Source of the DNA: Eledone cirrhosa
Lineage: Eukaryota
NCBI GenBank assembly: GCA_964016885.1
Contig: OZ024740.1
Coordinates: 182,404,001 to 182,468,000 of the forward strand
Direction: 5' to 3'
Length of the DNA: 64,000 nucleotides
The notes under the pieces are model-generated. The model did no database searches. It saw nothing but the letters and a program-made list of their open reading frames with translations, and was not told where the DNA came from. The first letter of the stretch is position 1. Each line of letters starts with the position of its first letter. The position numbers were made by a program, and so were the translations under genes. Positions 1 through 63,800 of the stretch are shown in pieces.

Positions 1-734
1 ATGGGACAACTCATTTAAACCATACTAGCATGGAAAAATGGATGTCAAACAGTGATAATTATGATGATGATGGATGCAAAGCTGGTTCAGACACTGACTC
101 ATTAACAATTCCACCAACCCACCACCACTGGACTTGTAATTTTTTCATTGACCCCAACAGGTTGAAAGTTGACCTAAGATACTAGATTCTTCTAAAAAGA
201 AATAATTGTTATTCTCGATTCAACCTCCACCACGGCCACGAACACAACAACAACTACTACTACTACAGCTCCCATCATGACCACTATCAGCACATCCCCC
301 AAGTCAACCACCACAACAACAACAACCAACATCACAAGCCTCAACTGCACCAACACAACCACCACTACCACCACATTGGTTTCAGAGATATTCCTCATAT
401 CTATAACTTACATTATATCACTAAATATATTTCCATATTACCATCTATGTTATTTTATCTATAAGAGACTGAACTAGCTTCCATACTTTTTTCTTTCCTC
501 TTTAAAGTAAAGCAGACTTAGTTTTCCATTATTCCTACATTTACATTGGCTCCTGAGCCCATTAGCTCTGAAAATCTCGATATGACATGGAAAATGGACT
601 AAATAAAAATAATGCACACTCACACACACACACACACACATATATATATACAGCAAGGCACAATAAAAAAATATTATGGAAGAGCAATAATCTCAGTAAG
701 ATATGGATGAATTATATATGTATATATATATGTA

Positions 735-3700
735 TCATCATCATCATCACCGTTTTACGTCCGTTCTTCCACGCTAGCATGGGTTAGACGGGTTGTCCTG
801 TTGTGGACAGTGTCTGGTCGGCTGACCATGCCTTGCTCATACAGGAACTGATCTGGCTTGATTTCTACGGCTGGATGCCCTTCCTAACACCAACCTCATT
901 TACAGTGAGTGCTGGGTGCTTTTTCGTGGCGCCTACACGTCCACTTTACAGTGTGGACTGGGTGCTTTTTTGCCGTGGCACCTCCACGACCACCTTGCGG
1001 TGGGGAGTGTGGGGAGATATTGTCTATATGCTTCAGCTTGTACCCATGGGAGGTCGGGTACTCTGTATTACTGCGTGACGCCAGAAGTCACGGTCGTGTG
1101 TCATTGTCTTTGAGAGGTGTAATTGGGTAAGGTCGGCTTTTATCACCTCATCCCAGGTCATCTTGGGTCTCCCCACTCCACGGTTTCCATCAACTTCTAG
1201 TGCTCTGCACCTTTTTATGCAGCTGTCATCCTTCATACGCATCACATGTCCATACCAGCGCAACCGCCTCTCCTGCACACAGCATTTGATTCCTCTTATG
1301 CTCAGTCTCTCTCTCAATTCATTTATGCATTGTCGTTCATGTATATTACTGTTACACATCCATCGGAGCATGCAGGCTTCGTTTCTCTCTAATCTACGTA
1401 AGTCTTCCACCTTCAGCGCCCAGGTCTCACTACCATGCAACATCGCTGTTCGGATACACGCATCATACAGTCTGCCTTTCATTCTGAGGGAGAAGCCTTT
1501 TGCAGCTAGCAGTGGTAGTAGTTCCCTAAACTTCTTCCATCCCGTTCTTACCATAGTTATTGTACTTTCTGAACACCCACCTCCATTGCTAATTCGGTCA
1601 CCTAGGTAGCAGAAGCTGTCTACTGTTTCTGCAGGGCCCTCCCAGAGATTGGTGGTACTTGTTTCCTGTGGCTGTTGGCTGCTTGCTGTCCCAGCACAGC
1701 TGCTGCATGTGAATCCTACATTCTAAATTAAGCTTCCTGAGATCCCGTTACATCTCTTGTGTACCCATTGTTTGCATTTGGGGCAGAGAATGGAGTTCCT
1801 ACCTACACCTTTCCTACATACTGAGCAAGGCCATTTCCCTGAGGGGATCTGGGTTCTGTTTTCTCGTCTACTTACAAGGACCTTAGTCTTTGTCATGTTG
1901 ACTTTGAGACCCTTTCTTTCTAGTCCCTGCTTCCAAGTTTGGAATTTATTCTCTAGTTCTACCATAGATTCAGCTATGAGTGCAAGGTCATCAGCATACA
2001 GGAGTTCCCATGGGCATCCGGTCTTAAACTCCTCCGTTATTGCCTGCAGGACTATGATGAACAGGAGAGGGCTAAGAACAGAGCCCTGGTGGACCCCAAC
2101 CTGTACGTTAAATTACTCGCTATACTCATTGCTAATCCTAACTTTGCTGACTGCTCCCCTATACATGGCTTATACCGCTTTCACAAGCCATTCATCTACT
2201 CCTAATTTTCTAAGAGCCCACCAGATTACAGCACGTGGAACTCTGTCAAAGGCTTTCTCAAGGTCGACAAATGCCAAGTAGAGTGGCTTACTTTTAGCTA
2301 GGTACTTTTCCTGTAATTGCCTCACAAGGAAGAGGGCATCGGTGGTGCCTCTTCCTGGTACAAACCCAAATTGCATCTCGTCTATTTTCACCCGGTCCCT
2401 AATCAGCTGTGCTATAACTCTTTCTGTTACTTTCATGACCTGGTCCATCAACTTTATACCTCTATAGTTTCCTCTATCTAGTGCATTGTCTTTACCTTTG
2501 TAGCAGTTGACAATGATGCTACTGCACCAATCTTTTGGTATGGCACCTTCTAGTATTACCTGGTTAACGATACGTGTGGTTATAGTGTGACCTACAGACC
2601 CAGATGCCTTCAGCATCTCGGCAGCTATACCCGATGGACCGGTTGCCTTCCCCATCTTCATATCTTTGATTGCCTTACTTACTACGCTGCTGCTGACTTG
2701 TACTGCTGGTCCCTCTATAGGGTCTACTTGGGGTAGGGTCTCTTCTTCCCATGCATTCTCCTCATTTAGTAATCTATCATAATGACTCTTCCATGCATCT
2801 TTCTTCTCAGCACTTGTGAGGGCAAGCTCACCTTTATCGTTCCGGATACACTTCTCTCCAATGACATCACAACTATCTCTGACACACTGCCTCGCAATCT
2901 TAAATACCTCCTGTTTCTGGTCCTCACGTTGTAAAACATGCTTGAATTTTCTATCCTCTGCTTCCCTCCTAGCTAAGTATACTTGTCGCCTAGCTTCCCT
3001 CTTGGTCTCTATGTAATGTACCCTGCTCCCCCCGTTCTTCCATTCTTTCCATGCCTGTCTCTTGGCCTTAACTGATTCATCTACCTTATTGTTCCACCAC
3101 CAAATCACTCTCCTCCTGCTTGAGGTCTTACTCCAGCCACAGACCTCATCCGTCGCCTCTAGTAAATTATTTTTTAGGAACTCCCAGTTCTCTTCTACAT
3201 TAAATGTCTCTATCTGTTCTTCTTTACTGTCGTAGGCGTTGAGTAAAATATCTTTAAATCTGTTACTGGTTGAGGGGACTTTCAGCTTCCAGATCTTTCT
3301 TCTCCAGGTTGGCCTCTGTTTCCGGGTTCGTCTAGTTCTGACCGTGAGGTCGCTGACAACTAAGCTATGTTGGGATGTACATTCCTCACTAGGGAAGGCT
3401 TTTGTGTTTACGACCGTCCATCTTTCACGTCCTCTGATGAGGATAAAATCTAACTGACTAGGTGATCAGGTGGTTGTCGGGTTTTTTAAAGTTTGTGTTA
3501 CATATCAACATGTCATTGGTGTCGCAGAATTCTAGAAGTCTGAATCCTTCCTCATTCCTTGTGCCAACCCCATGGCCTCCATGTTCTCTATTGAAGCCGT
3601 CGCAGTGTTTACCTACGTGTCCGTTAAAATCTCCTGCGATGATTAGGAAGTCATTGTCATCTGTTAGAGCAGTAGTGTGCATTAGGGACTCGTAAAACCT

Positions 3701-3765: not shown

Positions 3766-3804
<39 letters not shown>

Positions 3805-3807
<3 letters not shown>

Positions 3808-3989
3808 GTTTCTACTTTTGGCACAAGGCCAGCAATAACCCAGTGTATTACTGGTACTTTATTTTATCGACCCCATAAGGATGAAAGGCAAAGTTAACAT
3901 CGAAGGGATTTGAACTCAATGTATATATATATATAATAACATATCATATATATACATATATACATCATAATCATATATATATATATATT

Positions 3990-4037
<48 letters not shown>

Positions 4038-5575
4038 CACACACATATATATATATATATGTATATATATGTATATATATGTATATATATGTATATATAT
4101 ACATATATAGACATATATATATATATATAATATATATATATGTATATATATAAAAAAAGCAACAAAAATCTATCCATATGAATAAAAACTTTAATATGAC
4201 TAATAATAAAAATAATAATTGTTTCTATTTTAGGCACAAGGCCAGCAATTACTCAGTGCATTACTGGTACTTTATTTTATTGACCCCGTAAGGATGAAAG
4301 GCAAAGTCAACCTCGGCATAATAATAAAAACAATAATGATAAGAATATGAAAGGAAGAAGAAAACTAGCAGGAGGAGGAGAATCAAGATGGATGATAAGA
4401 AAACATAAAGAATGGAAATGTATAAGGAAGTGAGAATGGAAATAAGAAACATCACCTGAAATAAGTATAATACTGATAAATAAAATGGCTAAACAACAAT
4501 AACTACTATTAATATTAATGATAATAATGCTGATGTTGATGATGATGATAGTGGTGGTGGTGGTGGGAATGAGGATGATGATAGCGGTGGTGGTGGAGGA
4601 GATGAGGATGATGATTGCGGTGGTGGTGGTGGTGGTGGTGGGGATGAGGATAATTATAATTGTTTCTACTTTTGGCACAAGGTCAGCAATTCCCCAGTGT
4701 ATTACTGGTACTTTATTCTATCGACCCCGTAAGGATGAAAGGCAAAGTTAACCTCGGCGGGATTTGAACTCAGATCATACAGGGAGGTAACTCTATGCTT
4801 CAAAGCATGGCATCCGACCCTCTACCGGAGGATAATTATAATGATAATAGCTAAACCACAATAACTACTATTAACATTAATGATAATAATGATGATGGCG
4901 GTGGTGGTGGTGATGGTGGCGGCGGGGGATGAGGATGATGATAATGATGATAAAGATAATAATTGTTTCTACTTTGAGCACAAGGCCAGCAATTACCCCA
5001 GTGTATTACTGGTACTTTAATTTATCCACCCCGTAAGGATGAAAGGCAAGTTAACCTTGGCGGGATTTGGACTGAGATCATAAAGGGCCGTAACTCTACG
5101 CTGCAAAGCATGGTGTCCGGCCCTCTACTGATACTGCCAATCCACCGATAAAGATAATATTGATTTCTAGTATAGGTAGAAGGCCAGTAATTTTGGAGAG
5201 GGGAAATTAAATCGACCCCAGTACGTTACTGGTGCCTTATTTTATCAACGCCAGAAGGATGACAAGCAAAGTTAACCTCGGCAGGATTTGAACACAGATC
5301 TTAAAGGGCCGTAACTCTATGCTGCAAAGCATCATGTCCCGCCCGCTACCAATACTGCCAATCCACCGATAAAGATAATAATTGTTTCTACTTTTGGCAC
5401 AAGGCCAGCAATTATCCCAGTGCATTACTGGTACTTTATCTTATCGACCCCATAAGGATGAAAGGTAAAGTTAACCTCAACGGGATTTGAACTCAGTCCG
5501 CAAAGGGACGTAACTCGATGCTGGAAAGCATGGCGTCCGACTCTCTACCAATACTACCAATCCGCCATCCTTAGA
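3805..5575 (-). mobile_element. Cluster of six tRNA-derived SINE copies (Meta-domain-like body), partly head-to-tail
   Basis: Repeated unit tttctact..ggcacaaggccagcaat..ctggtactttattttatcgacccc..aaggatgaaaggcaaagttaacctcggcgggatttgaactcag starts near 3805, 4218, 4660, 4962, 5163 and 5381. The minus strand reads GAGTTCAAATCCC (B-box-like) followed by GCCTTTCATCCTT..GGGGTCGATAAAAT..AGTACCAG. The domain name is from recall only. Confidence 0.8.
3926..4151. repeat. (TA)n/(CA)n compound microsatellite
   Basis: Directly visible. Confidence 0.95.
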
Positions 5576-5599
5576 TAAAGATAATAATTATGGCAAAGT

Positions 5600-6095
5600 A
5601 GTTGTCAATAATGATGATGTTGATGATGATAATGGCAGTGTTGGTGATGGTGGCGTTGGTGGTGTTGGTGTCGTTGGGGATAAGGCTGATGATAATGATG
5701 ACGGCCAATGAGAATAAGAATGTTCATGATGATGATAATGATAAAGGTGGTGGTGGTGGTATTGTTGGCAATGATGACAATGGTGGTGGTGGTATTGATG
5801 ATGATGATGATAACAACGATGGCAAAGAGGATGATGAAAATGTAGTGGTGGTGTTGATAATGATGACGGCCATGAGAATAAGGATGTTCATGATGATGAT
5901 CATGATGATAATGATAATGGTGGTGGTGGTGGCAATGATGAAGATGGTGTTAGTGATAATGATGATGATAATGATGATGATGATGACAACGACGATGATG
6001 AGAAGAAGGCGGAGGAAGAGGGTTGGATGAAGTGGACGACATCGATGAAAAGGAGGAGAATGGTGACGAACAACAACAATAACTACAACAACAAC
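5600..6095. repeat. (GAT)n/(GGT)n low-complexity trinucleotide tract
   Basis: Directly visible; it is the source of the spurious Met/Asp/Val-rich ORFs. Confidence 0.9.
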
Positions 6096-7642: not shown

Positions 7643-8442
7643 ATATATATATATAAAATAAAAAATGACAGACACAAATATACAAAAACAGTTAGTGTTA
7701 TTAGGTTCATGCTTTGAACAAAACAGAAGAAGGAAGTTCAATTTATCAAAAATTAGTTCTTCATCAGGAGAGTATTTATGTGAGAGTTGAGAAAAGGAAC
7801 AAATGCGAGATAGAAGAGGGAGATAAAAGAGGAGAGAAGGTTGCAGAAGGATGTTGTGGTGAACAGTTAAAAACGTCCTGAAATCTGAAGATTGGGTTAT
7901 TTGCTGGTGATCCATTGTTGGTCAAAATGTTAGAAAGTTGCAGTTCATGTGTCAAGGACATGACAACATTCCTACTATTGGTGGTACACAGGATAAAAAC
8001 TACCAGTATATGCTGTAAAGTGGTTGATGATAGGAAGGGCATCTAGCCATAGAAAACTTTCCAAACAAAATATGACAACCTCTCTAGTGCTGGTACCATG
8101 ATAAAATGCACTCAGTAGAATGTGGGGCCCAATATATAAGTGGGGTGCAGAACCCCGGCCAGTCTGGAAATTAGTAGCTCTGCTTCAGTACTGACTCAGT
8201 CTGTGAAGGCATGTCCAGCCATTGCTAGCTGGGAAAGTGGACATTAATGATGATGATGATGACAATGTTATATTGGGGAAATGAGAATTTTTTTGTTATG
8301 TTCCAGGATTATATGTCATCATCTGCATTTTCGAAGATTCTAGAGTGATGCTTCTCATAATTGGTTCCATGAAATAGCCGTAAGATTTCAGGCATAAGGT
8401 GTTTTAATAAAATCTAATATAAATGTATTTTATATATGTATA

Positions 8443-8770: not shown

Positions 8771-9899
8771 TGGTCCTATTATGAGCACGTTATGCCACAG
8801 CCAACTAGCCAGACCTACCTCATAATGATACCACTTAACTCCCAAAATACGGTTCAACTACGAGAAAGTTATACCACAGCCAGCTGACCAGACCCTCCTC
8901 ATAATGAGACCACTCAGTTCTACACTGCAAACATGGTTCATGATAGAAAGGGCATCCAGCAGAAAAAAAATCTCAGCCATAATACATTTCCTTTCACTAG
9001 CCACAGAGGCTATGATGAAGGTAAAGAGCATTAATCTTCCTTCCCTAAACCATGAAAAAAAGGAGCAGTTAATGTATTCCTTCTTGTCTTTTCTCCTTAT
9101 AAAGCAATAAATCTACAATGCATTTTATTGTACAGCTAATAAACCAACATTGCTGCATTCACAAGAATGCTAAGATATAACACATGAAAATAATATTCCT
9201 AAACCTTTACCCAACTTGTATTTCTGCTAGTTTTAGGGCTTATTATACATGATACACATGGCTACATAATTAAGAAAATTGCTTCACAATCTTAGGAGGT
9301 CTTAGGTCACACTGTGTAATATCATAGTCAAGTGTATTTTACTAAAGCCTTGGATCATCTCAACCTTTATGAGGGAAATTGTTTTGGCACAAGTGTTTAC
9401 TGTTTGAAAGCTTGTTAGTTGAAGTTTATTTGTAATTTAAAGGGGAAACCTTGCTATACACTATATCACTCTGAATCTCCACAATAATTTATTTATAGGT
9501 ACATGTGTCTGCACAATACTCAGTCACTTGCCTATTTATTTAACATGCAGTCCATTCTGTTGATTAAACACTAGGAATACTCATTGCTGAAACTGAAGAA
9601 TGTCAATGTATACACAGCTCAATGGATATCTATGATAGAGTTTGTGCATAACAGAAAGATTCTACAAAACATAGGGATTAAACACAACATGGTACTTATA
9701 CACAACATAATGGTTACACAATGACAGCCATGAAAATTTCTGCAATTTTAAAAATCTTTTCAGTCAGCAAAGAAAGGACTGTACCCATAAATGGAATTTG
9801 AACTCAAAGGTAGAGAGCCAGAACAAATACAACAATACATTTTATCCTATGCTCTAACAACTCTGGCAATTCCTCACCTAAGTATATCTAAAGATCTAA

Positions 9900-13733: not shown

Positions 13734-14060
13734 GGAGGCACATGGCTTAATGGTTAGAGCATGGCCTTGCAATCGTAAGGTTGTGAGTTCAATTCTCAAA
13801 CCGAGTGATGTGTTGTTTCCTTGAGCAAGACACTTTATTTTACATTGCTCCAGTTTACTCAGCTGTAGAAATGAGATGATAGGGACTGGGGTCCCTATCA
13901 TTCTACTGCAAAGTGGAGGTGCCATGGAAAAATGCTCCAGCACTCACTGTAAATGAGGTTGGTGTTAGGAAGGGCATCCAGCTGTAGAAATCAAGCCAGA
14001 ATCAGTTCCTGTCCAACCCTTGCAAGCAGAGAAAAGCAGACGTAAAAATGATGATGATGA
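13734..14060 (+). mobile_element. tRNA-derived CORE-like SINE with RTE-B-type tail
   Basis: A box TGGCTTAATGG, B box GAGTTCAATTC, CORE-like ccttgagcaagacacttt..ctgtagaaatg, body ggttggtgttaggaagggcatccagc, and tail cccttgcaagcagagaaaagcagacgtaaaa(atg)n. Confidence 0.88.
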
Positions 14061-14723: not shown

Positions 14724-14850
14724 TGTATATTACCAACTTGTATGCCGTTTGTTAGACTATATATTTATATCTAGTTAAACATGACTCCTTACTCTAACTT
14801 TATCTTATCAAAATCAACTTAGTATTTCATGAATTTGAGGTTTATTAGAC

Positions 14851-15142
14851 ATCATCATCATCATCAATTAACGTCTATCTTCCATGCTAGTATGGTTAGA
14901 CGGGTTTGTCCCATTTAGAGGCAAGTTGGGTCAAGTGATCCTGTCAGGCACATATAGGAGAGTTTCTGGCTGGTTTTCTACGGTTGGATGCCCTTCCTAA
15001 TGCCAACCACATTGACAGTGTGTGCCGGGTGCTTTTTGCCGTGTCTTTTACATGTCTACTTTACAGTGTGGGCTGGGTGCTTTTTGTTGTGATGCCTGCA
15101 CGATCACTTTACAGTGTGGGCTGTATGCTTTGTGGTACCAGT
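14851..15142 (-). mobile_element. 3' half of RTE-tailed SINE (three copies of the internal ~45-bp unit)
   Basis: (cat)n..acgtctatcttccatgctag..ggatgcccttcctaatgccaacc, followed by three cagtgtg..gctttt units. Confidence 0.75.
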
Positions 15143-17170: not shown

Positions 17171-17484
17171 TTTAGACTTTTAAAGAACTACATAGAGAAA
17201 AGCATTAAGAAAAAAAGTGAAACACATATAAATTAAATCAGTAGTTATGAAATATATTTTGTTGCAAAACCCTGATACAATTTTCCAAACTTCTTGTAAG
17301 ATTGTATCTATATTTTACAGCCAATACCCTTCACTTTAATTTTAATAAGATATTCACCTTTTTTATATTAAACTGATTATGTTAAAGTGTTTATAATTAT
17401 CTAAAAACTGTCAATCAACATTTTATGTAAGGACATTTATGTTCCAGACAAATTATCTACCAATACTGGCAATCCCCGTTTGTG

Positions 17485-17700
17485 GATTGGCAGTATTTGT
17501 AGTGTGCTGGACAACATTCTTTGCAGCATGGTATTACAGCCCTTTAAGTTCTGAGCTGAAATTCTACCAAAGTTAACTTTGCCTTTCATCCTTATGAGGT
17601 TGATAAAATAAAGTACCAGTTATGCACAGGGGCTGATTTAATCGACCTTCCACCTCCAAAAAATTGCTGGCCTTGTCCCTAAATCGAAAACCATTATTAT
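17485..17700 (+). mobile_element. Meta-like SINE, full-length diverged copy
   Basis: Reverse complement of the 3805-5575 unit (ttaactttgcctttcatcctt..gataaaataaagtaccag..aattgctggccttgt). Confidence 0.75.
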
Positions 17701-18542: not shown

Positions 18543-19447
18543 TCATCATCATCATCATTTTACGTCCGCTTTTCCCTGCTTGCAAGGGTGGGACGGGTCT
18601 TATTCAGCACAGCATCTCTCCACTCGTCATGGTCCCTCGTCATCTCCACCATGAGCTTCAATGATCTGAGGTCTGTTCTCACCACCTCCGCCCATGTTTT
18701 TCGTGGTCTAACTCTACCGCGTCTTCCTTCAACTGGCAATTCCTGGCACTTCTTCACCCATCGGTCATCCTCCATGCGCATCACATGTCCATACCACCTC
18801 AGTCTCCTCTCCCGTACACTACATTCTATCCCTCTCAGACACAGTTTCTCTCTCAACACATTTATGCTGGGTCGTTCACGCACATTTACACTGCACATGC
18901 AACGGAGCATGCTTGCCTCATTTCTCTCCAGCTGTAGCATATCCTCTGCAGTTGCTGCCCATGTCTCACTACCATGCAGCATCGCGCTCCTCACACATTC
19001 ATCATACAACCGGCCTTTCGTACGCAGGGAGAAACCCTTCTTCGTCAACAGAGGAAGCAGCTCCCTAAACTTCTTCCAACCCGTCCTTATTCTAGATACT
19101 ATGGCCTCGGAACACCCTCCTCCCATGCTAATCTGATCTCCTAGGTACCGGAAGCATTCCACCACTTCTATAGCGCCCTCTTGCATTTGAAAAGTGTGTC
19201 TATCAGTGCAACTTCTACTGTCTAATTTCCCTGTACATCTACTGTCTAATTTCCCTGTACATCTACTGCATACATATTTCTCCCTACCTGTTAGTTTGCC
19301 TGCTATCCCGCTACATCTCTTGTGTACCCAGGATCTGCATTGTGTGCATTTTATAGAATTTATGCCAGTTCCTTTTCTGCATATCGTACATGGCCATTTC
19401 CCTGACGGAATCAGGGTTTTGTCCTCTTTTCTACTCATCAACACTTT
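18543..19447 (-). mobile_element. RTE LINE family B, 5'-truncated, open C-terminal ORF, (ATG)n tail directly after the stop
   Basis: The ORF 18560-19447 part reads [51 protein letters not shown]. The element is flanked by (TA)n on both sides. Confidence 0.93.
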
Positions 19448-19611
19448 TGTCTTATATATATATATATATAACCAAAAGTTAAACAAGGTTCATTGATTAA
19501 TCAATGAATATAGTATTACAATAGATTAGAAGCACTCAACAAAAAAATTTTCTGGAGTTATTAATATTACTTCAAAATATTAATAAATATAGACATTCAT
19601 GTGATCAAATA

Positions 19612-19975: not shown

Positions 19976-20264
19976 CACCGGCATGGCACAGCTTCAAATT
20001 GGGTCATTTGTTTACAAACGAATTAAACATTATTATTAATGTTCGATATAACCCATACGTACATATGTATATGTATATATTTGTGTGTATGCATATATGT
20101 ATATGTGTGTACATGAACATTCTTATATATATATATATATATATATATATTACCCACTCTACTACCCTAAGTATTGAGTACTCTGGTGCATTATGGTCCA
20201 TATGGTTCCTTACCACAACTCCTTCATTATATATATATTATATATATATATAATAACAATAATA

Positions 20265-20480
20265 ATTTCTACTATAGACACAAGGCCAGCAATTTTGGGG
20301 GAGGGGAAATTCGATTAAATCAACTCTAGTGCATTACTTGTATTTTCTTTTATCGACTCTGTAAGGATGAAAGGCAAATCTAAAGCTGGTGGGATTTGAA
20401 CTCAGAATGGAAAGGGCCATATCTTTATGCTGCAAAGTATGATTTCCAATGCTCTACAGATTCTACCAATCTACCACCCA
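20265..20480 (-). mobile_element. Meta-like SINE copy
   Basis: tttctact..cacaaggccagcaatttt..tatcgac..aaggatgaaaggcaaa..gggatttgaactcag. Confidence 0.78.
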
Positions 20481-20677
20481 TATATATATATATATAATAA
20501 TAATGTAAATGATTGTGTACTGTGCTCAGCTGTATTACATCTCACCAAAGGTGCATGTATATCATCATTTTCATCAATATACGTCCGCTTTTCCCTGCAA
20601 TAATGTACAAATGTCAGGAAATTAAACAGTGTATAGGTAATGTTATACACACAGACACACATATGCATACATGTGTA

Positions 20678-30341: not shown

Positions 30342-33245
30342 CAATCTCCGGTTAGAGAACGGTTGTCTCTAACCGGAGATTGTGTGACGGGTGTCGGCGA
30401 AAGTCTCGATGAGGAAGACAACATCCTGAGGACCAGAATTCTGTCTGCAAAAACAACCACACGTATTGGATATTGGAACATAAGAACTCTGTACCAACCA
30501 TCCAAACTTGCGCAAGTTATCGAAGAAATAGAGGCCTACAAAATTAACATCATGGGCCTCAGCGAGTCCGCTGGACTAACTCTGGGAAGTTTGTCCATGA
30601 AAACAAGACCATACTGTTCTCAGGCCGTCAGAACGGGACCCACTGAGATGGAGTTGCAGTCATCATGGACAGGGCTGCCAGTGGTGCCCTTGAGGAGTGG
30701 ACTCCTATCAACAAACGCCTAATGACAGCAAGATTCACCACATCACATGCAAAGGTCACCATAGCTCAGTGCTATGCTCCAACCAACGAACATAATGACG
30801 ATGACAAGGACGCTTTCAACCAGCAACTACAAGATGTTGTCAGCAAAACCCCACGTCATGACATCCTGATCATCATGGGAGACATGAACGCACAGATCGG
30901 GGGAAGCAAGGTTGGCTTTGAACATGTCCTTGGCCCCCATGCTTATGGAAACCGGATGGACAATGGGGACAGGTTTGTCCAGTTCTGTGCCATGAACAAT
31001 ATGAAAATTGGCTCATCACTATTTGACCACAAGAACATCCACAAGGTCACAAGGTCACCACAGGACCAAGACATAAATAGACCACATTGCAATTGGCTCA
31101 AGCCAGAGAACTCCTTGCCTGCAGGACGTCCGAGTCTTCTGGGGCGAAGATGTCTGCAGTGACCACTATCTGTCTGTTACCAAACTTAAAATCAGACTGA
31201 GGAAGCAGAAGAAGAAAGCACCCACTACAAGGCGTTTTGACACTACCAAACTGAAGAACGGTGACACACAAGCACAGTTCGAGGCTGCTTTGAGGAACAG
31301 ATTTGCTGTCCTTAAGGAGTCTGCACCAGACTCGGTCAATTGGTGGGAAGAAATGAAGAACATGGAAGCCTCAGGGGAAGAAATCCTGGGCTACAGGAAG
31401 TCCCTCAGAGAAGCTTGGGTCAGCGACAACACCTGGCAGCTGATTAATGAAAGGAAAGCCCTGCACCAGCAGAGGCATGCCACTACCCCAGAGGCCATCA
31501 AAGTATATCAGCAGTATGTTGAGAAGGACAAGGAGGTGAAACGCAGCGCCCAAAAGGACAAACGAATGTAGCTTGAAGGTAAGGCAGAGGAGGCGGAAGC
31601 AGCTGCGGCACGCAATGACATGCGCTCTGTGTACCAAATTGCCAAGAAAATCACTGGCAGCTAACTCAGGCCCGGTGAAAGCGAAAGATGGCACACTGCT
31701 TTCCAAGGGTGAAGAAAAGTTAGTCAGATGTGCTGAACATTTCAAGGAAGTCCTCAACCGACCGGAGCCACGTGTGCCAGCAGATATTAAGGAACCTATT
31801 AGTTTGTTGCCTATCAATACTAATGACTTCACCGAGAAGGAAGTCCGCATGGCCATCAAAACCCTTAAGAATAACAAGTCACCAGGTATGGATGGCATTT
31901 CTGCTGAAATGCTGAAGTCAGGAGGTGAAAGCATGGTCAAGTGGATGGGCCACTTATGTAATCTTGTGTGGAACACGGGTGAAGTCCCAGAAGATTGGAG
32001 AAACGGAGCGCAACCATGCCAATTGTGACAACTGGAGGGGAGTGACACTTCTCTCCATACCAGGGAAGGTCTATTGTCTAGTAATCCTGAACCACATGCG
32101 TGGCATGGTAGACCGGGAACTGCGAGAACAACACGTTCCTGTGCAGAGATCTTTACGCTACGCCGCATCATTGAGAGGTACAACGATTTTCCAGAGGCCC
32201 CTCCCCATCAGCTTCATCGATTTCTCCAAAGCATTCGATAGCATTCATCGACCGTCACTCTGGAGCATCATGCATGAGTTTGGTCTGCCCCAGAAAGTCA
32301 TTTCAGCAATCAAATAGATTTACGCAAACTCCAAGTGCTGCATACGGACAGAGGATTGTTACAGTGACTGGTTTGAGGTGGTTACTGGTGTGCGTCAAGG
32401 TTGCTCGCTCTCTCCAATTCTCTTTGCCATAGCCATTGACTGGGTACTAAGAAGAGCGTCTAAAGACCAGGGTATATCTTGGGTTGGAGAGCAAAATTGT
32501 GTGACCTGGACTTTGCGGACGATATTGCTGCACTTGCAGAGAGCACAGCTGACCTGCAAATCATTGTGAACAAAAGCTTAGGTCTCAATATCAGTGCCAA
32601 GAAGACCAAAAGCATATTATCTGGGACACACCCATCACCAACTAGTGTCTTCATTGAACAGGGGAGGTGGAGATAGTGGACAACTTCACCTACCTAGGAA
32701 GCTCCATTAACAATGGTGGCACCATGGACAGTGAATTGCAATGTAGAATGGGAAAGGCTTCTGCAGCATTTAACCAGCTTGACAAGATCTGGAAGAGCAG
32801 GAAGTTCACCCTCAAAACAAAGATGAGATTCTACAACAGCAACGTGCTGTCCACACTCTTGTACGGAAGTGAAACATGGCACCTTAAGACCAGCCAAGAG
32901 AAGAAGTTGGATGCATTCGATTCCAGGTGTCTGCAAAAGATCCTGGGGATTAAATGGAGTGACCATGTAACAAACCAGGAAGTCAGGAACTGAACCAACC
33001 AGCAGCCAGTCTCTTCTACCATCTGCAAGTGACGCCTGGGCTGGTTTGGACACGCTTTGAGACTTACCCCGGAGAGACTGGCGAACCAAGTACTCAAATG
33101 GAGCCCGCAGGGAAGCAGATGGAGAGGGCGACCCAATATGAACTGGCGCCAGACAATTGAGAGGGACCTGCGAGCGACAAACAGACAATGGAACACTATG
33201 ATTGCCTCATGCGTCGCAAGACACGGGAGCTTCTGAGTCTGAGTG
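30342..33245 (+). mobile_element. Near full-length RTE LINE family C (APE+RT), many frameshifts, (CTGAGT)n tail, 9-bp TSD
   Basis: IGYWNIRTL, QCYAPTN, MGDMNAQIG, FIDFSKAFDSI, GVRQGCSLSP, LDFADDIA, FTYLGS and LLYGSETW lie in shifting frames. ATGCATGCA occurs at 30333-30341 and 33246-33254. Confidence 0.93.
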
Positions 33246-34100: not shown

Positions 34101-35724
34101 GTAGTATATTTTATCAACCCTAAAAGAATGAAAGGCTAAGATGAGTCTAAGCAATGGAATACAATTCTATTTCCTCAGTTTACTCAGCAAGGGGTATAAA
34201 TACCATATTTTCTAAGAGATGGTGGTGAGTTATAAATTATAGACTTGTTGATTTATCTATTTTTATCAACACTATAAAATCCTTTTTTTTATTAATATTT
34301 TATTATTGAAGATAAGCACTAATCCTATGGACCTTTGGAGTATATGAAAACTATAAATGGTAAATGGATATTTTTGTATAATATTTGTAGTTATAAAGTC
34401 TAACAAATTTATGGAAGCAATTACGTGGCACCTTTCTTTCCATAGTAACAAACAACAGATGTGACAATAAATTTTATATTTTTCGTCCATTTTTTTTTGG
34501 CCAACAAATAGATTAAAAACTATAGAATAAATAAAATCAACAAGTGATGTTTTTCCAAGGATTCATTCAAGTATTTTTAATGCTTTCCATTTTATCAGCA
34601 ACAAACTGGTGAAAAATGCGATAAACAAACAAAATTGACCTGGTTGGTGCCAATCACAAGAAGAAAAAAGTGGATGAATTTTTATTACAATGCATCAGGA
34701 ACTTAAAATGAAACAGACCCTACTAAAGCGAGATGATTCCATCATGTACGTGATTGCATCCCTGGTTACCAAAATCTGTGAAAATGCCATAAATTTGTGA
34801 CATTTATACAAAAATTTTATAAAGTTCTAAAGAGAAAAGGAGAGAAAAATGAAGGTGTTTACAAATTTTCTTTTTTCTATCACTTAAATTAATTCACATA
34901 GAATAATTCCATTCATCTTTCAATTCTCAGTTTTGCTGTTTTATCATGTGTTGCAAAACATTATATGAAAATATACATTTACTGGATTAACTTTACTTTA
35001 TATATTATGCCTGTCACAATGGTAAATATATTTTCCATGAAGTTTTATCATAAAGATGTGTAGTCATTTTAAACAGATGTTATTATGTCAGTAGTTACAA
35101 TTCACCAAATTTCATAAATTTAATGTAAAGCTTTGTCAAGTTTATATTAAGTTTATGAGAAAAAAGTTTGACATCTAAAATTAATCTTATCATGAGTTTG
35201 TCTTTTATAACTACATTCAAGAAACAGTCACAGGAAGAGTCATAAGTTGTTGAATTGATAGATAAGGTCTTAATATATTGCCAAAAGATTAATACCTCAT
35301 ATACCATTATTAGCACTTTATTGTGTCTGCAAACAACAAACCTAGTTCTCAGTAGTATAAACAACCTAACAAACAATACGTAAACACACATGCATGGACA
35401 GACTAACACACACGCATAAATACATGAACAGATGGATGGACGGACACACACCTATTGTATCATCAACTGCATTAACCATCCTGGTATCTTTTTATGAAAT
35501 AACATGACTAGCTAGAAATAAGAGCAACAGCTTCCTTAAATCATACCCTAAAATCTTTAAAAAGGAGTACATTACATAATGTAATCCTAGATATGCAAAA
35601 AGACGGGGGAGTCATGTCTGTAATACCTCTGGCCATAATTCTGCTTAATGAATGCTGGCAACTAATGCTGCCTCACAAAGCTTTACACCTATGACTACAT
35701 TAATTATTAGTATCAAGGATGGTG

Positions 35725-35950
35725 GTTGGGTAGTATTGGTAGAGGATTGGACAACATGCTTTGTGACATGCAGTTACAGCACCGTACATTATGATTTCAA
35801 ATCCCACTAAGATTAGCGTTGCTTTTTATCATTACAGGTTTGATAAAATAAAGTACTAGTAAAGCACTGGGGTTGATTTAATCAACCACCCTCCACCACT
35901 AAAAAAAAAAAAAAGAATTGTTGTCCGTGTGCCTAAATCAGAAGCCTTTA
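35725..35950 (+). mobile_element. Meta-like SINE copy
   Basis: gtattggtagagg..catgctttg..ttcaaatccc..gataaaataaagtactag..ctggggttgatttaatc..gtgcctaaatcagaa. Confidence 0.7.
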
Positions 35951-37891: not shown

Positions 37892-38322
37892 ATGGCTTAG
37901 TGGTTAGAACATTGGGCTTGCAATCGAAGGTTGTGAGTTCAATACTCGAACCGGGTGATGTGTTGTTTCCTAAAGCAAGACACTTTATTTCACATTGCTC
38001 CTGTTTACTCAGCTGTAGAAATGAGATGATAGCACTGGGGTCCCTATCATTCTATTGCAAAGTGGTTGTGGTCGCGCCTCAGCAAAAAAGCACCCAGCCC
38101 ACACTTTAAAGTGGACGTATAGGCGCCACGGAAAAAAAGCACCCAGCACTCACTGTAAATGAGGTTGGTGTTAGGAAGGGCATCCAGCTGTAGAAATGAA
38201 GCCAGAATCAGTTTCTGTATGAGCAAGACAAGGTCAGCCGACCGGAAACTGCCCACAACAGGACAACCTGTCTAACCCATGCTAGCGTGGAAGAATGGAC
38301 GTAAAACAGTGATGATGATGAT
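37892..38322 (+). mobile_element. tRNA-derived CORE-like SINE whose 3' ~270 bp match the RTE-A 3' end
   Basis: Same head as the 13734 and 44764 copies; 38055-38322 aligns to the reverse complement of 735-1003. Confidence 0.9.
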
Positions 38323-38399
38323 ATATGTATATATATCTAAATAAACATATATATATGCGTGTGTGTGTGTGTGTGTATATATATATACATATATATTAT

Positions 38400-39194: not shown

Positions 39195-39238
<44 letters not shown>

Positions 39239-39357
39239 TAAACGGAATAGAAAATGCTGACAAATTGTTCACAGTTGAAAAATGGTTTAATTAGGAATAA
39301 AAGAGTATTAGTGATTGTATGGGTTAGTATTCAGTTGTGGTTTTAAGTTTTTAAGTT

Positions 39358-39394
39358 TTTTACCGGTTGCGCATTTCTAAATGCTTTTCAAAAA
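39358..39394 (-). ncRNA. Variant hammerhead-like motif in PLE-1 terminus (antisense twin of 41227-41263)
   Basis: Reverse complement of TTGAAAA-GCATTT-AG-AAATGC-GCAA-CCGG-TA. Confidence 0.45.
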
Positions 39395-39698
39395 TAATTT
39401 TGAGATAGAGTGTCCGTGCTGTTTGCTCTGATCTGATTAGTTTTGGGAATTCTACCTGTTTTTATGTTAAAAAAGTGGCTCCAATTTGCAAAAATTCTTG
39501 TGGTCAAAACAATTTTGATTGGTCGGTAGAGGTCATGTGAATGTAAAAAATTGATTTTGCGCCAAGACTGTTTTTATGTTAAAAAAGTGGCTCCAGCAAA
39601 AATTCTTGTGGTCAAAACAATTTTGATTGGTCGGTAGAGGTCATGTGAATAAAAAATTGGTTTTGCGCCAAGATTGAGAAATGACTCTTTCACAACAA

Positions 39699-39750
<52 letters not shown>

Positions 39751-40022
39751 TAGTAGTAGTAGTAAGGTGTTCGATGTTGTGATAATGGTTAGCAGCGATG
39801 TGTGTCAAATGGCTATTAAGATAAGTGTGTGTGTGTGTGTATAGCAGAGTAATTCGTGGTGGCAAGGATGGTCAGTAAGAATGTGTCTGAAAGCAATGGG
39901 GGGTATTTTAGCATGTCAAAAGATATTTTTCAGCTTTTGTCTTATACGGAGCAGTGCGTGTGTGTGTGTGTGTGTATATATAAGTCTCTTTGTATGTTGA
40001 TGTACGCGTGTGTATGTGTGTG

Positions 40023-40062
<40 letters not shown>

Positions 40063-40214
40063 GGTGGACCAGTATTTTTTTCCCCCTGGTAAAATGGTGT
40101 ACATTATTCGATTTTTTCAGTAAAATCGGTTCTCTTAATAGAACATCAAAAATCTTAACAATAAAAGGTGTGAAATGATATTCACTATATATATATACAC
40201 ATACATATATTCAC

Positions 40215-40246
<32 letters not shown>

Positions 40247-40392
40247 CATATATACACATGTATATGCACATATATTTTTTTGTGTTGCACCATAGAGCAT
40301 GTGTGTTTATGTATGTCATTGTGTTTATATGTGGGTAGAGATGTGTGCTGATGTAGGTATGTATGTTGACGTGTGTATGTTGTGGGTTCGTC

Positions 40393-41156
40393 TTAGGGAT
40401 AAGTGTTTAGATGGGGTCCGTATTTGTTAATGAAGTAAGATTCCTTGCTGATGCGCTGGGTGTGGGTGGCATCATCTTTAAATTTGTAGAGGGGAAAGAT
40501 TCTAAAGTTGGGATGATTTTGGGCGGCACAGGTATCAATGTGTTCACTCAGTGGTATTTTCCTGTATTCCCGTATTTTGATTTGGGATCTATGGACAGTC
40601 ATGCGTTGGCGGAGGCTGTTTTTGGTCCGGCCTATGTATTGTTCTCGACAACCTGAACAAGTTAATACATATATTAGATTTTCCAATGCACATGTGAAAT
40701 TGTGTTTTACTATAAAACGTTGTCCATCTTTGAAATAGAATTCCGAACCCTCTATTAGGTTGATGCAGATGCCACAGTTGGGTCTATCGCATTTTTTTAC
40801 TGTGCGTTTCGTTGTTGTGGTTGGCAGTACTTTGGCATGTGTTAAGATGTTTTTCATTGACTTGGATTGTCTTTTGCTCTTTATGATATTGTGTGTTCGT
40901 AGAATTTGGTTCATTCTATGGTCCTTTTTCAATACAGGGATGTTCTGGAGGATGGTGTCAAAAGCCTCATTGTTGAGGGGGTTGTGTGTGGAGATGTATG
41001 GAAGAGCTTTTAGTTTTGGTTGATTTACTTTAGGGTGTCTAAGGTCCTGGGTACTGAGTTTTAGGGCACGTTGGATTCCATTGTCAATTAGTGATGCAGG
41101 GTAGTCCCTGCCTATGAGTGTGTCCTTTAGTTCTTGTAGCCGTAAGTAGCAGATGT
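40393..41156 (-). CDS. PLE-1 C-terminal ORF: end of RT thumb, Cys-rich linker, GIY-YIG endonuclease (Neptune-like, tentative)
   Basis: LIGRDYPASLI, CDRPNCGIC, NLIYVLTCSGCREQYIGRT..LRQRMTVH, ESYFI. The frame is open, but the annotated start (41178) lies in the inverted repeat. Confidence 0.88.
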
Positions 41157-41226
41157 TAAAAACAGGTAGAATTCCCAAAACTAATCAGATCAGAGCAAAC
41201 AGCATGGACACTCTATCTCAAAATTA

Positions 41227-41263
41227 TTTTTGAAAAGCATTTAGAAATGCGCAACCGGTAAAA
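41227..41263 (+). ncRNA. Variant hammerhead-like motif (U3/A8 core, GCAA for GAAA)
   Basis: ttt-TTGAAAA-GCATTTagAAATGC-GCAA-CCGG-TA^aaa. It has stem II and the palindromic stem III ACCGGT, but stem I is weak. Confidence 0.45.
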
Positions 41264-41382
41264 AACTTAAAAACTTAAAACCACAACTGAATACTAACCC
41301 ATACAATCACTAATACTCTTTTATTCCTAATTAAACCATTTTTCAACTGTGAACAATTTGTCAGCATTTTCTATTCCGTTTA

Positions 41383-41420
<38 letters not shown>

Positions 41421-41421
41421 C

Positions 41422-41454
<33 letters not shown>

Positions 41455-42185: not shown

Positions 42186-42306
42186 GGAGGTGAGTTTTAT
42201 TGTAGTACAATAAAGCAATGTAGATATCGGATAAGTAGCACTCTACAGTTTGTAGGACTGGAGTATAAATAATATAAGATCAAAAGATGGTTAAAAGAGT
42301 TCCATG

Positions 42307-42377
42307 TATTTTATTATGCGCATTTCAAAAACAAATATCATATTGCGATGACATTTTCGTTTTCGTCAGATAAAATA
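42307..42377 (-). ncRNA. Type I hammerhead ribozyme motif (PLE-2 type)
   Basis: Minus strand: TATTTTAT-CTGACGA-[long stem II]-GAAA-TGCGCA-TA^ATAAAATA. Confidence 0.82.
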
Positions 42378-44237: not shown

Positions 44238-44585
44238 ACCTTAATTTAATATTATTCTTAATTTTTTCTTTTCGTTAATTTTCCAATCCTTTTAATTTAT
44301 ATATTATCTTCCAACGGTTTTTAACCTCTCTCTGTAAAACAATATATTTTTCTCAGTTATAAAAGCTATCTCTCTCTCTCTATCACCGATCTCTCCTCCT
44401 ATCTCATCCTTCCTTATTATACTCCTCCCCCTCTATTCTTTACTTTCATCTCCTCCTCTTTTTCATCCTTTCCAACTCCCCTCATTTTTTCCCAATATCA
44501 CACATCAATCTTAAACTACTTTTCATATGTTGATTTAAAACAGCACTATTCACAAATGTTTTTTAACCTTCATATCATGTCTCCC

Positions 44586-44656
44586 TATTTTATCTGACGA
44601 AAACGCAAATGTCATAGCATGATGATATTTGTTTTTGAAATGCGCATAATAAAATA
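44586..44656 (+). ncRNA. Type I hammerhead ribozyme motif (PLE-2 type)
   Basis: TATTTTAT (44586-44593), CTGACGA (44594-44600), stem II, GAAA (44637-44640), TGCGCA-TA^ATAAAATA (44649-44656). Confidence 0.85.
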
Positions 44657-44684
44657 CATGGAACTCTTTTAACCATCTTTTGAT

Positions 44685-44742
<58 letters not shown>

Positions 44743-44748
44743 TAAATG

Positions 44749-45098
44749 GAGGCACATATATATGGCAGCACATGGCTTAGTGGTTAGAGCATTGGGCTTG
44801 CAATCGAAAGGTTGTGAGTTCAAATCTCAGACCGAGTGATGTGTTGTTTCCTTGAGCAAGACACTTTATTTCACATTGCTCCAGTTTACTCAGCTGTAGA
44901 AATGATATGATAGGGACTGGGTTCCCTATCATTCCACTGCAAAGTGGTCATGGTGGTGCCACGGCAAAAAAGCACCCACCACTCACTGTAAATGAGGTTG
45001 GTGTTAGAAAGGGCATCCAGCTGTAGAAATCAAGCCAGAATCAGTTCCCGTCCCACCCTTGCAAGCAGGGAAAAGCGGATGTAAAATAATGATGATGA

Positions 45099-45102
<4 letters not shown>
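44749..45102 (+). mobile_element. tRNA-derived CORE-like SINE with RTE-B-type tail
   Basis: A box TGGCTTAGTGG, B box GAGTTCAAATC, CORE-like block, and tail cccgtcccacccttgcaagcagggaaaagcggatgtaaaa(atg)n. Confidence 0.9.
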
Positions 45103-45146
<44 letters not shown>

Positions 45147-60846: not shown

Positions 60847-63800
60847 CATCATCATCATCATCATCATCATCATCACCGTTTTACGTCCGTTCTTCCACGC
60901 TAGCATGGGTTAGACGGGTTGTCCTGTTGTGGGCAGTGTCTGGTCGGCTGACCATGCCTTGCTCATACAGGAACTGATTTGGCTTGATTTCTACAGCTGG
61001 ATGCCCTTCCTAATACCAACCTCATTTACAGTGAGTGCTGGGTGCTTTTTCGTGGCGCCTACACGTCCACTTTACAGTGTGGGCTGGGTGCTTTTTTGCC
61101 ATGGCACCTCCATGACCACCTTGCGGTGGGGGGTGTGGGGGCATATTGTCTATATGCTTCAGCTTGTAACCATGGGAGGTCGGGTACTCTGTATTACTGC
61201 GTGACACCAGAGGTCACGGTCGTGTGTCATTGCCTTTGAGAGGTGTAATTGGGTAAGGTCGGCTTTTATCACCTCATCACAGGTCATCTTGGGTCTCCCC
61301 ACTCCGCGGTTTCCATCAACTTCTAGTGCTCTGCACCTTTTTATGCAGCTGTCATCCTTCATACGCATCACATGTCCATACCAGCACAACCGCCTCTCCT
61401 GCACACAGCATTTGATTCCTCTTATGCTCAGTCTCTCTCTCAATTCATTTATGCTTTGTCGTTCACGTATATTACTGTTACACATCCATCGGAGCATGCA
61501 GGCTTCGTTTCTCTCTAATCTACGTAAGTCTTCCACCTTCAGCGCCCAGGTCTCACTACCATGCAACATTGCTGTTCAGATACACGCATCATACAGTCTG
61601 CCTTTCATTCTGAGGGAGAAGCCTTTTGCAGCTAGCAGTGGTAGTAGTTCCCTAAACTTCTTCCATCCTATTCTTACCCTAGTTATTGTACTTTCTGAAC
61701 ACCCTCCTCCGCTGCTAATTCGGTCACCTAGGTAGCAGAAGCTGTCTACTGTTTCTACAGAGCCCTCCCAGAGATTGGTGGTACTTGTTTCCTGTGGCTG
61801 TTTGCTGCTTGCTGTCCCAGCACAGCTGCTGCATGTGAAGCCTACATTCTTAATTAAGCTTCCTGAGATCCCGCTACATCTCTTGTGTACCCATTGTTTG
61901 CATTTGGGGCAGAGAATGGAGTTCCTACCTACACCTTTCCTACATACTGAGCAAGGCCATTTCCCTGAGGGGATCTGGGTTCTGTTTTCCCATCTACTTA
62001 CAAGGACCTTAGTCTTTGTCATGTTGACTTTGAGACCCTTTCTTTCAAGTCCCTGCTTCCAAGTTTGGAATTTATTCTCTAGTTCTACCATAGATTCAGC
62101 TATGAGTGCGAGGTCATCAGCATACAGGAGTTCCCATGGGCATCCGGTCTTAAACACCTCCGTTATTGCCTGCAGGACTATGATGAACAGGAGAGGGCTA
62201 AGAACAGAGCCCTGGTGGACCCCAACCTGTACGTTAAATTACTCGCTATACTCATTGCTAATCCTAACTTTGCTGACTGCTCCCCTATACATGGCTTATA
62301 CCGCTTTCACAAGCCATTCATCTACTCCTAGTTTTCTAAGAGCCCACCAGATTACAGCACGTGGAACTCTGTCAAAGGCTTTCTCAAGGTCGACAAATGC
62401 CAAGTAGAGTGGCTTACTTTTAGCTAGGTACTTTTCCTGTAACTGCCTCACAAGGAAGAGGGCATCAGTGGTGCCTCTTCCTGGTACAAACCCAAATTGC
62501 ATCTCGTCTATTTTCACCCGGTCCCTAATCAGCTGTGCTATAACTCTTTCTGTTGCTTTCATGACCTGGTCCATCAACTTTATACCTCTATAGTTTCCTC
62601 TATCTAGTGCATCGCCTTTACCTTTGTAGCAGTTGACAATGATGCTACTGCACCAATCTTTTGGTATGACACCTTCTAGTATTACCTGGTTAACAATACG
62701 TGTGGTTATAGTGTGACCTACAGACCCAGATGCCTTTAGCATCTCGGCAGCTATAGCTGATGGACCGGTTGCCTTCCCCATCTTCATATCTTTGATTGCC
62801 TTACTTACTACGTTGCTGCTGACTTGTACTGCTGGCCCCTCTATAGGGTCTACTTGGGGTAGGGTCTCTTCTTCCCATGCATTCTCCTCATTTAGTAATC
62901 TATCATAATGACTCTTCCATACATCTTTCTTCTCAGCACTTGTGAGGGCAAGCTCACCTTTATCATTCCGGATACACTTCTCTCCATTGACATCACAACT
63001 ATCTCTGACACACTGCCTCGCAATCTTGAATACCTCCTGTTTCTGGTCCTCACATTGCAAGACATGCTTGAATTTTCTATCCTCTGCTTCCCTCCTAGCT
63101 AAGTATACTTGTCGCCTAGCTTCCCTCTTGGTCTCTATGTAATGTACCCTGCTCCTCCCATTCTTCCATTCTTTCCATGCCTGTCTCTTGGCCTTAACTG
63201 CTTCATTTACCTTATTGTTCCACCACCAAGTCACTCTCCTCCTGCTTGAGGTCTTACTCCAGCCACAGACCTCATCCGTCGCCTCTAGTAAATTATTTTT
63301 TAGGAACTCCCAGTTCTCTTCTACATTAAATGTCTGTATCTGTTCTTCTTTACTGTCATAGGCGTTGAGTAAAATATCTTTAAATCTGTTACTGGTTGAG
63401 GGGACTTTCAGCTTCCAGATCTTTCTTCTCCAGGTTGGCCTCTGTTTCCGGGTTCGTCTAGTTCTGACCGTGAGGTCGCTGACAACTAAGCTATGTTGGG
63501 ATGTACATTCCTCACTGGGGAAGGCTTTTGTGTTGACGACTGTCCATCTTTCACGTCTCTGATGAGGATAAAATCTATCTGACTGGAGTGCTCCCCTGAT
63601 CTATAGGTGATCAGGTGGTTGTCGGGTTTTTTAAAGTTTGTGTTACATATCAACATGTCATTGGTGTCGCAGAATTCTAGAAGTCTGAATCCTTCCTCAT
63701 TTCTTGTGCCAACCCCATGGCCTCCATGTTCTCTATTGAAGCCGTCGCAGTGTTTACCTACGTGTCCGTTAAAATCTCCTGCGATGATTAGGAAGTCATT

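What the first reader, a model, noticed from the sequence alone, without database searches (positions are those of the whole stretch)
735..1033. RTE-A ends in a SINE-shared module carrying a second, fossil RTE terminus (candidate LINE-SINE chimera)
Seen: the RTE-A ORF stops at ..STRPPMGTS* (1033). After about 30 nt, 1003 down to 735 matches the 3' half of the tRNA/CORE SINE at 38055-38322. The last 40 nt of this module read TRLTHASVEERT* then (ATG)n, homologous to the true ORF end of RTE-B ([12 protein letters not shown], 18560). Copy 2 has the same structure, so RTE-A carries two successive RTE ends. Established: SINEs normally take tails from LINEs, and bipartite RTE-derived segments occur in SINE bodies. 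Inference: here the LINE may have captured the SINE 3' half, reversing the usual direction.
Basis: partly seen in the sequence, partly recalled or inferred. Interest (0 to 1): 0.75.

Follow-up and report, generated by a model that had tools for sequence, protein, structure and literature searches.

The report
Retrotransposon lineage with a borrowed tail
A family of jumping genes carries an extra tail, made from the start and the end of a related element and likely added long ago, and the short element that shares this tail likely copied it from the jumping gene, the usual direction, not the reverse.

Summary
In detail: both RTE-A copies end in a 270-nt module, 90% identical to the SINE at 38057-38336, whose last 39 nt are an RTE ORF end. 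The proposed direction fails for this SINE. The module is the 3' UTR of an old RTE lineage: 86 of 88 complete A/C/D/E ends carry it, and its divergence tracks the ORF (rho 0.80). The SINE modules nest inside LINE diversity at an older RTE-A stage (AU p=0.0002 against lying outside), and older SINEs with the same head lack the module. What survives is a deeper oddity. The module is a bipartite RTE piece: a start-proximal 5' UTR segment plus an ancestral-type ORF end. Sister family RTE-B and RTEs of other organisms keep that segment before the ATG; this lineage has it after the stop. So an autonomous LINE likely annexed a bipartite RTE piece long ago. Whether the donor was a SINE is untested; no head remnant was found. 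The scan noted this module earlier elsewhere in this genome, as an RNA structure.

The parts
1033..1722 (-). 3' part of the RTE-A ORF, copy 1; stop at 1035-1033; its own terminus is decayed
1004..1032 (-). LINE-specific spacer between stop and module; shortened from about 100 nt in the older D family
896..1003 (-). about two and a half tandem 48-nt units homologous to the RTE-B 5' UTR upstream of the motif
870..895 (-). conserved motif GGTTGGTGTTAGGAAGGGCATCCAGC; lies shortly before the ATG in RTE-B and in RTEs of other organisms
794..869 (-). middle segment; first about 25 nt follow the RTE-B 5' UTR, the rest is of unknown origin
755..793 (-). second RTE terminus, relic frame TRLTHASVEERT*, predicted stem-loop; the working end of the element
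735..754 (-). (ATG)n tail
60860..61186 (-). RTE-A copy 2: ORF end, spacer and module
37892..38330 (+). SINE with RTE-A-type tail: head to about 38025, imperfect hairpin about 38026-38051, module from about 38057
44772..45104 (+). same SINE head and module start, tail switched to the RTE-B end
13742..14060 (+). second copy of the RTE-B-tailed SINE
18560..19489 (-). 3' part of RTE-B: ORF runs to the element end, no module
14850..15119 (-). older, 5'-truncated module copy, 76% identical to RTE-A's
7930..8230 (+). part of a module of the old G family, an RTE 3' UTR with 140-nt units

Best explanation
The module is the 3' UTR of a long-lived RTE LINE lineage, composed of an RTE 5' UTR segment and an ancestral-type RTE end, which was likely appended behind the ORF long ago and which the young SINE likely copied from an older stage of RTE-A. 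Step 1 (shown): the ancestral layout has the motif before the ATG and an ORF that runs to the element end, as in RTE-B. Step 2 (inferred): an internally deleted, bipartite RTE piece came to lie behind a LINE end, by insertion at its tail and read-through or by template switching, and its stem-loop plus (ATG)n became the end at which reverse transcription starts. Step 3 (pattern shown, cause inferred): the first terminus decayed, differently in A/D, C and G, and the sampled A and C 5' regions lack the motif. Step 4 (shown as tree nesting): the module then evolved with the ORF through M, D, old A and young A, and through E and C. Step 5 (inferred): an existing SINE head joined the old-A module; a subfamily later swapped its last 40-45 nt for the RTE-B end, which would move it to a second partner LINE.
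For: 86 of 88 complete A/C/D/E ORF ends carry the module, 16 of 16 in 1.12 Mb not chosen by sequence; 0 of 58 complete B/H ends do. ORF and module distances correlate over 38 copies, rho 0.80, 0 of 999 permutations. Module trees place the SINEs with old and young A (99/88; 99/93); SINEs outside A+D+C+E rejected, p-AU 0.0002; A+D without SINEs rejected, p-AU 0.028. None of 32 SINE modules has the young-A haplotype; they match old-A LINE copies such as L110, and LINE intermediates exist. Mean identity among copies: G 73.5, M 80.8, D 81.8, old A 89.3, SINE A-tail 92.7, SINE B-tail 94.2, young A 98.1. Four older SINEs with the same head have another body. RTE-B 5' UTR matches the module middle, 0 of 5000 shuffles. 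In metagenome contigs 8 of 66 motif loci lie just before an RTE ORF, none behind one. Outgroup RTE proteins end in RPTHAS-type words like the relic frame; rooted tree is ((H,B),(G,ACDE)).
Against: A single gain is not shown: G+ACDE has only 86/82 support and both alternatives pass the AU test (p 0.175 and 0.132); G ends in a B-type stem (20 of 25) while the others are H-type, which needs a second gain or a tail swap. In one search one SINE copy (L232) groups with young A (100/99), and clades of SINEs alone (p 0.020) and of A-type LINEs alone (p 0.010) are rejected, so some later exchange in either direction is possible; one search shows that L232 shares only one of the four scored young-A states. 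No free headless bipartite element was found in this genome. True 5' ends of A and C were not reached. Only three old-A copies entered the trees. Terminal stem-loops do not fold better than shuffles. Identity values for old families come from best-hit sets and are biased upward.
Confidence: 0.8

Rival explanations
1. RTE-A itself captured the 3' half of the SINE family at 38055.
For: 90% identity; young A sits in an unresolved cluster with SINE copies, once as sister to SINE copy L232.
Against: The module was already on D, M, C, E and G LINEs, all more diverged than the SINE; the LINE spacer is continuous from D to young A; older heads lack the module; AU p 0.0002.
Confidence: 0.05
2. The ancient donor was the 3' half of an extinct SINE that had a long bipartite RTE tail, so a SINE-to-LINE transfer did occur, but in the lineage's ancestor.
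For: An old SINE-like family (K, 67.5% among copies) with motif plus H-type end exists here. Such SINEs are common (PMC5786205).
Against: K lacks the upstream 5' UTR unit that all LINE modules keep (score 14.4 against 13.9 shuffled; LINE modules 29-40). No head remnant in 13 spacers against 4 heads (best 6 of 300 shuffles among 52 tests).
Confidence: 0.2
3. The module arose in place: two RTE copies head to tail, the second losing its interior by deletion, with no free non-autonomous donor.
For: RTE copies lie next to each other's tails (L028, L146). Three of four M spacers hold a decayed H-type end just before the units (0 of 500 shuffles). No free donor was seen.
Against: Needs a second, precise deletion; 20 of 66 metagenome loci look like free bipartite elements by a loose pattern, so such donors arise easily. 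It cannot be told from capture of a headless donor with these data.
Confidence: 0.25

Closest known systems
Bipartite non-autonomous RTEs and RTE-derived SINE bodies (Bov-A, WALLSI, Ceph-SINE 3' half; Kojima 2018, PMC5786205, parts 1-4 of 5 read, supplement searched twice)
   Same: An internal RTE 5' UTR segment joined to the RTE 3' end; tRNA+CORE+RTE5'+RTE3' SINE layout; tail exchange.
   Different: Here the bipartite piece is fixed behind the ORF of autonomous LINE families, and the SINE takes it from there. The motif was not found in that paper's supplement text.
Ingi-3_AC and R4-1_ADi carrying an RTE/Ceph-like segment (PMC5786205)
   Same: An autonomous LINE holds a segment of another RTE's 5' UTR; SINE-LINE recombination was suggested for Ingi-3_AC.
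   Different: Those sit in 5' UTRs and add no second terminus.
SINE tail switching and chimera series (hagfish SINE1-1_EBu, PMC7245038; CmiSINE, PMC5499810; passages)
   Same: One head with successive RTE-derived parts and swapped tails, as in the A-tailed and B-tailed SINEs here.
   Different: Those concern SINEs only; ordinary for the SINE part of this finding.
5' switching and variable/conserved 3' UTR of tobacco SolRTE (bioRxiv 10.1101/2022.11.04.512097, passages)
   Same: RTE families replace 5' UTRs and have a variable spacer before a conserved 3' end.
   Different: In the passages seen, no 5' UTR-derived segment or second ORF end is reported in the 3' UTR.
Octopus CORE-SINEs OR1/OR2 (Ohshima and Okada 1994; not read, cited in PMC4824008 and PMC4758252)
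   Same: tRNA-like head with CORE in an octopus.
   Different: Sequences not compared; identity with these families is untested.

Membership tests
RTE-clade LINE | single ORF with APE endonuclease and reverse transcriptase | tested here: met
   Pfam PF03372/PF14529 and PF00078 in the 1021-aa RTE-B ORF, and RT and EN in RTE-A fragments
RTE-clade LINE | RT phylogeny with named RTE references | not tested
   outgroups used are unnamed proteins; the clade label rests on layout and recall
RTE-clade LINE | short tandem-repeat tail | tested here: met
   (ATG)n
Bipartite RTE-derived segment | 5' part matches an RTE 5' UTR | tested here: met
   89-column match to RTE-B 5' UTR, 0 of 5000 shuffles
Bipartite RTE-derived segment | 3' part matches an RTE 3' end | tested here: met
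   30 of 39 identical to RTE-B end; relic frame like outgroup C-termini
Bipartite RTE-derived segment | exists as a free headless family | tested here: inconclusive
   G and M, first seen as orphans, led back to RTE ORFs in 3 of 30 and 1 of 15 loci; family J could not be fetched
tRNA-CORE SINE (38055 family) | tRNA-derived head with A and B boxes | tested here: inconclusive
   boxes seen by eye; no ARAGORN or Rfam call
tRNA-CORE SINE (38055 family) | CORE domain | not tested
   resemblance recalled; no reference alignment made
tRNA-CORE SINE (38055 family) | many copies of one structure with a LINE-shared tail | tested here: met
   30 A-tailed and 34 B-tailed copies among the loci held (A-tailed enriched by the search)
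LINE that captured this SINE | LINE modules nest within SINE diversity | tested here: not met
LINE that captured this SINE | close LINE relatives without the module | tested here: not met
   86 of 88 carry it; L159 looks internally deleted, L245 interrupted
LINE that captured this SINE | SINE head or CORE remnant in the LINE 3' UTR | tested here: not met

The most novel reading that the evidence does not exclude
An autonomous RTE lineage took over the end of a non-autonomous bipartite RTE derivative (a parasite-to-host transfer, possibly from a SINE and possibly twice, in G and in M/A/C/D/E), moved the conserved start-proximal RNA element from its 5' to its 3' UTR, freed its 5' UTR for replacement, and later handed the ready-made module back to SINEs, closing a LINE-to-parasite-to-LINE-to-SINE cycle.
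Probability: 0.45. Interest if true: 0.62.

Novelty: new variant of a known kind. Interest (0 to 1): 0.42.

Why it matters
Tail sharing is read by default as LINE-to-SINE. Here that default holds for the present SINE, but the LINE's tail is itself a second-hand, bipartite piece. This gives a second route to bipartite SINEs (copying a ready module from a LINE 3' UTR) and a natural experiment: one conserved RNA element sits before the ATG in RTE-B and after the stop in its sisters, which makes its function (translation start versus protein binding in cis) directly testable.

Tried and rejected
Ceph-domain or Meta-domain identity of the motif: not found in the supplement text of PMC5786205 or in 2 of 3 supplement files of PMC4824008; figures held as pictures were not seen. 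Full-text searches for the motif found 0 papers; searches for a LINE acquiring a SINE or second RTE end found no such case; Repbase and Ogiwara 2002 could not be consulted, so prior description is not excluded. K family as donor: rejected. L091 as an old headed module: it is an old-body SINE abutting a G module. L329 as a foreign ORF-plus-module case: its ORF has its own tail. TSDs: mostly unreadable in AT microsatellites (18 of 66 SINE copies gave a candidate, many trivial). The test 'all LINE rows one side' (p 0.196) only asks whether SINEs can be one clade and says nothing on direction. Single-strand folding gave no significant z for either terminus.

Full report
Observation. The RTE-A ORF in the window stops at 1035-1033 after STRPPMGTS. 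Behind a 29-nt spacer, 998-723 matches the SINE at 38057-38336 at 90%. The last 39 nt before the tail read TRLTHASVEERT* and are 30 of 39 identical to the ORF end of RTE-B (0 of 5000 shuffles). Copy 2 is the same. The genome is a 3.0-Gb animal assembly, probably an octopod: among the named hits the most similar is an Octopus bimaculoides protein at 66%.

Is the module special to RTE-A? No. All 30 best RTE-A ends run through it (the query held part of the module, so this set is biased). Stretches taken at fixed positions and targeted searches showed sister families with the same layout: C (76% to A), D, E, and the older G and M, first seen as orphan modules and traced to RTE ORFs in 3 of 30 and 1 of 15 loci. 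Of 95 distinct A/C/D/E ORF ends, 7 were cut by a locus end; 86 of the other 88 carry the module. One (L159) keeps only the last letters of the module, as after an internal deletion, and one (L245) is interrupted. Of 59 B/H ends one was cut, 55 have the tail right after the ORF, 3 were unscored by the pattern, and none has the module.

Direction for this SINE. ORF and module distances among 38 LINE copies correlate (rho 0.80, 0 of 999 permutations), for example A to C 75.1% in the ORF and 72.4% in the module. In module trees the SINE copies (16 and 12 of 31 used) fall with old-A and young-A LINEs inside D, with C/E and M outside; placing the SINEs outside A+D+C+E is rejected (p-AU 0.0002). At four diagnostic sites the SINEs show the state of old-A LINE copies, none of 32 shows the young-A haplotype, and LINE intermediates exist. 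SINE modules are 92.7-94.2% alike, against 81.8% for D, 80.8% for M and 73.5% for G. Four older copies of the same head (76-87% identical) carry a different body. So the head existed first and picked up the old-A module. Against this: SINE copy L232 groups with young A, and strict SINE-only and LINE-only clades at the tip are rejected, so late exchange is possible, though L232 shares only one scored young-A state. A commoner subfamily (11 against 1 in 1.12 Mb, after removing duplicates) ends in the RTE-B terminus instead; 44772 and 13742 are examples.

What the module is. Full-length RTE-B copies with open 1000-aa frames (EN, RT and PHD by Pfam) carry the unit and the motif in the 5' UTR shortly before the ATG. 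The module middle matches that UTR over 89 columns and the G units over 154 (0 of 5000 shuffles), while about 1 kb upstream of three A and two C ORFs scores at shuffle level (true 5' ends not reached, A has tandem monomers there). The oldest LINE modules are the closest to the RTE-B UTR. In metagenome contigs the motif gave 66 loci (55 distinct downstream words): 8 just before an RTE ORF, 20 with an RTE-like end close behind by a loose pattern, none attached behind an ORF. Distant RTE proteins often end in words such as RPTHASMENGR or RPTHASVEKRR, like the relic frame. The module is therefore a bipartite RTE piece in the sense of Kojima 2018 (PMC5786205, parts 1-4 of 5 read).

Gain, not loss. 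With 11 outside proteins as root the tree is ((H,B),(G,(C,E),(D,A))); the nucleotide tree splits module-bearing from module-free families at 100/100. The G+ACDE branch has only 86/82 and alternatives are not rejected. G has a B-type terminal stem, the others an H-type one, the paired positions changing together, so two gains or a tail swap are open. Three of four M spacers hold a decayed H-type terminus before the units (0 of 500 shuffles against one of four test ends), a hint of stacked ends.

Mechanism. Shown: position, composition, age order and tree nesting. Inferred: that a bipartite piece came to lie behind a LINE end and was fixed by read-through or template switching; that its stem-loop and (ATG)n now serve as the start of reverse transcription (copies end there; recognition of 3' stem-loops by LINE proteins is established knowledge, not tested here; folding z-scores are near zero); that the first terminus decayed for lack of use. 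The donor is unknown. An old SINE-like family (K) has motif plus H-type end but lacks the upstream unit, and no head remnant was found in spacers. I put a headless bipartite donor at about 0.45, an in-place dimer with deletion at 0.25 and an extinct SINE at 0.2.

Literature. Bipartite RTE SINEs and tail exchange are well described (PMC5786205; passages of PMC7245038 and PMC5499810). A possible SINE-to-LINE transfer into a 5' UTR is mentioned for Ingi-3_AC; a SINE carried inside a MITE is described in PMC6887750 (passages). Passages of PMC13282606, PMC4758252, PMC13295347, PMC13174262 and bioRxiv 2022.11.04.512097, and part 2 and passages of PMC4824008, did not describe this layout. Searches found no report of an autonomous RTE with a bipartite 3' UTR, but Repbase, Ohshima and Okada 1994 and Ogiwara 2002 were not seen, nor one supplement file of PMC4824008. 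Earlier notes of this scan describe the same module at RTE tails, an RTE head and in a SINE, as an RNA structure; they were read after my and agree with them.

Verdict. Real feature; the reversed direction fails for this SINE; an ancient annexation of a bipartite RTE end by an autonomous lineage is likely and appears to be a new variant of known module shuffling.

Noticed in passing
window 44907-44932, 13875-13900, 38026-38051: An 11-bp inverted repeat forms a hairpin exactly at the joint of SINE head and module (z -3.41 at 44900-44940; decayed at 38020-38060); possibly a fold-back scar of the fusion.
   Followed up: partly
window 45040-45104 and 14005-14060: The SINE tail switches from RTE-A type to RTE-B type at a short shared word (CCTGT or CCCGT); the B-tailed form is younger and commoner.
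   Followed up: yes
L058, L061, L069, L074, L080, upstream of the RTE-A ORF: RTE-A 5' regions consist of tandem monomers of a few hundred bases in several variants, and lack the conserved motif.
   Followed up: partly
L421, L425, L426, spacer before the units: Family M may carry three RTE ends in a row: ORF end, a decayed end in the spacer, and the module end.
   Followed up: partly
L085, L086, L105, L018 (family C); L414, L296: Units or the whole motif block are tandemly amplified in many copies, up to long arrays.
   Followed up: no
L121:9732 and L038:7061: E- or C-type modules joined to a different upstream sequence, in L121 with a 15-bp hairpin at the joint; possibly another non-autonomous family.
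   Followed up: no
L035:8470-8740, L139:5982, window 8780-8990: Family J: another motif-plus-terminus family with a different unit; at least 40 genome matches, upstream context not seen.
   Followed up: partly
L146:614-960, L028, L018: RTE-A copies lie directly at RTE-C ends; in L146 the C spacer runs straight into an A ORF fragment.
   Followed up: no
window 40393-41184 and 43590-44240; inverted repeats 39198-41423 and 42272-44691: Two ORF fragments that look by eye like Penelope-type GIY-YIG endonuclease regions, each between long inverted repeats.
   Followed up: no
window 3798-5612, 17482-17698, 20258-20521, 35706-35883: Another short repeat family, with about five near-tandem copies at 3798-5612.
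   Followed up: no
window 30647-32028 (+): A distant RTE-like element in pieces, 33% identical to the RTE-A endonuclease.
   Followed up: no
window 1-68 (+): End of an older module (continuing from L032), facing RTE-A copy 1 tail to tail about 670 nt away.
   Followed up: no
L257:4883-7945: RTE-B has open 1000-aa frames in several near-identical copies and a PHD finger behind the RT.
   Followed up: partly
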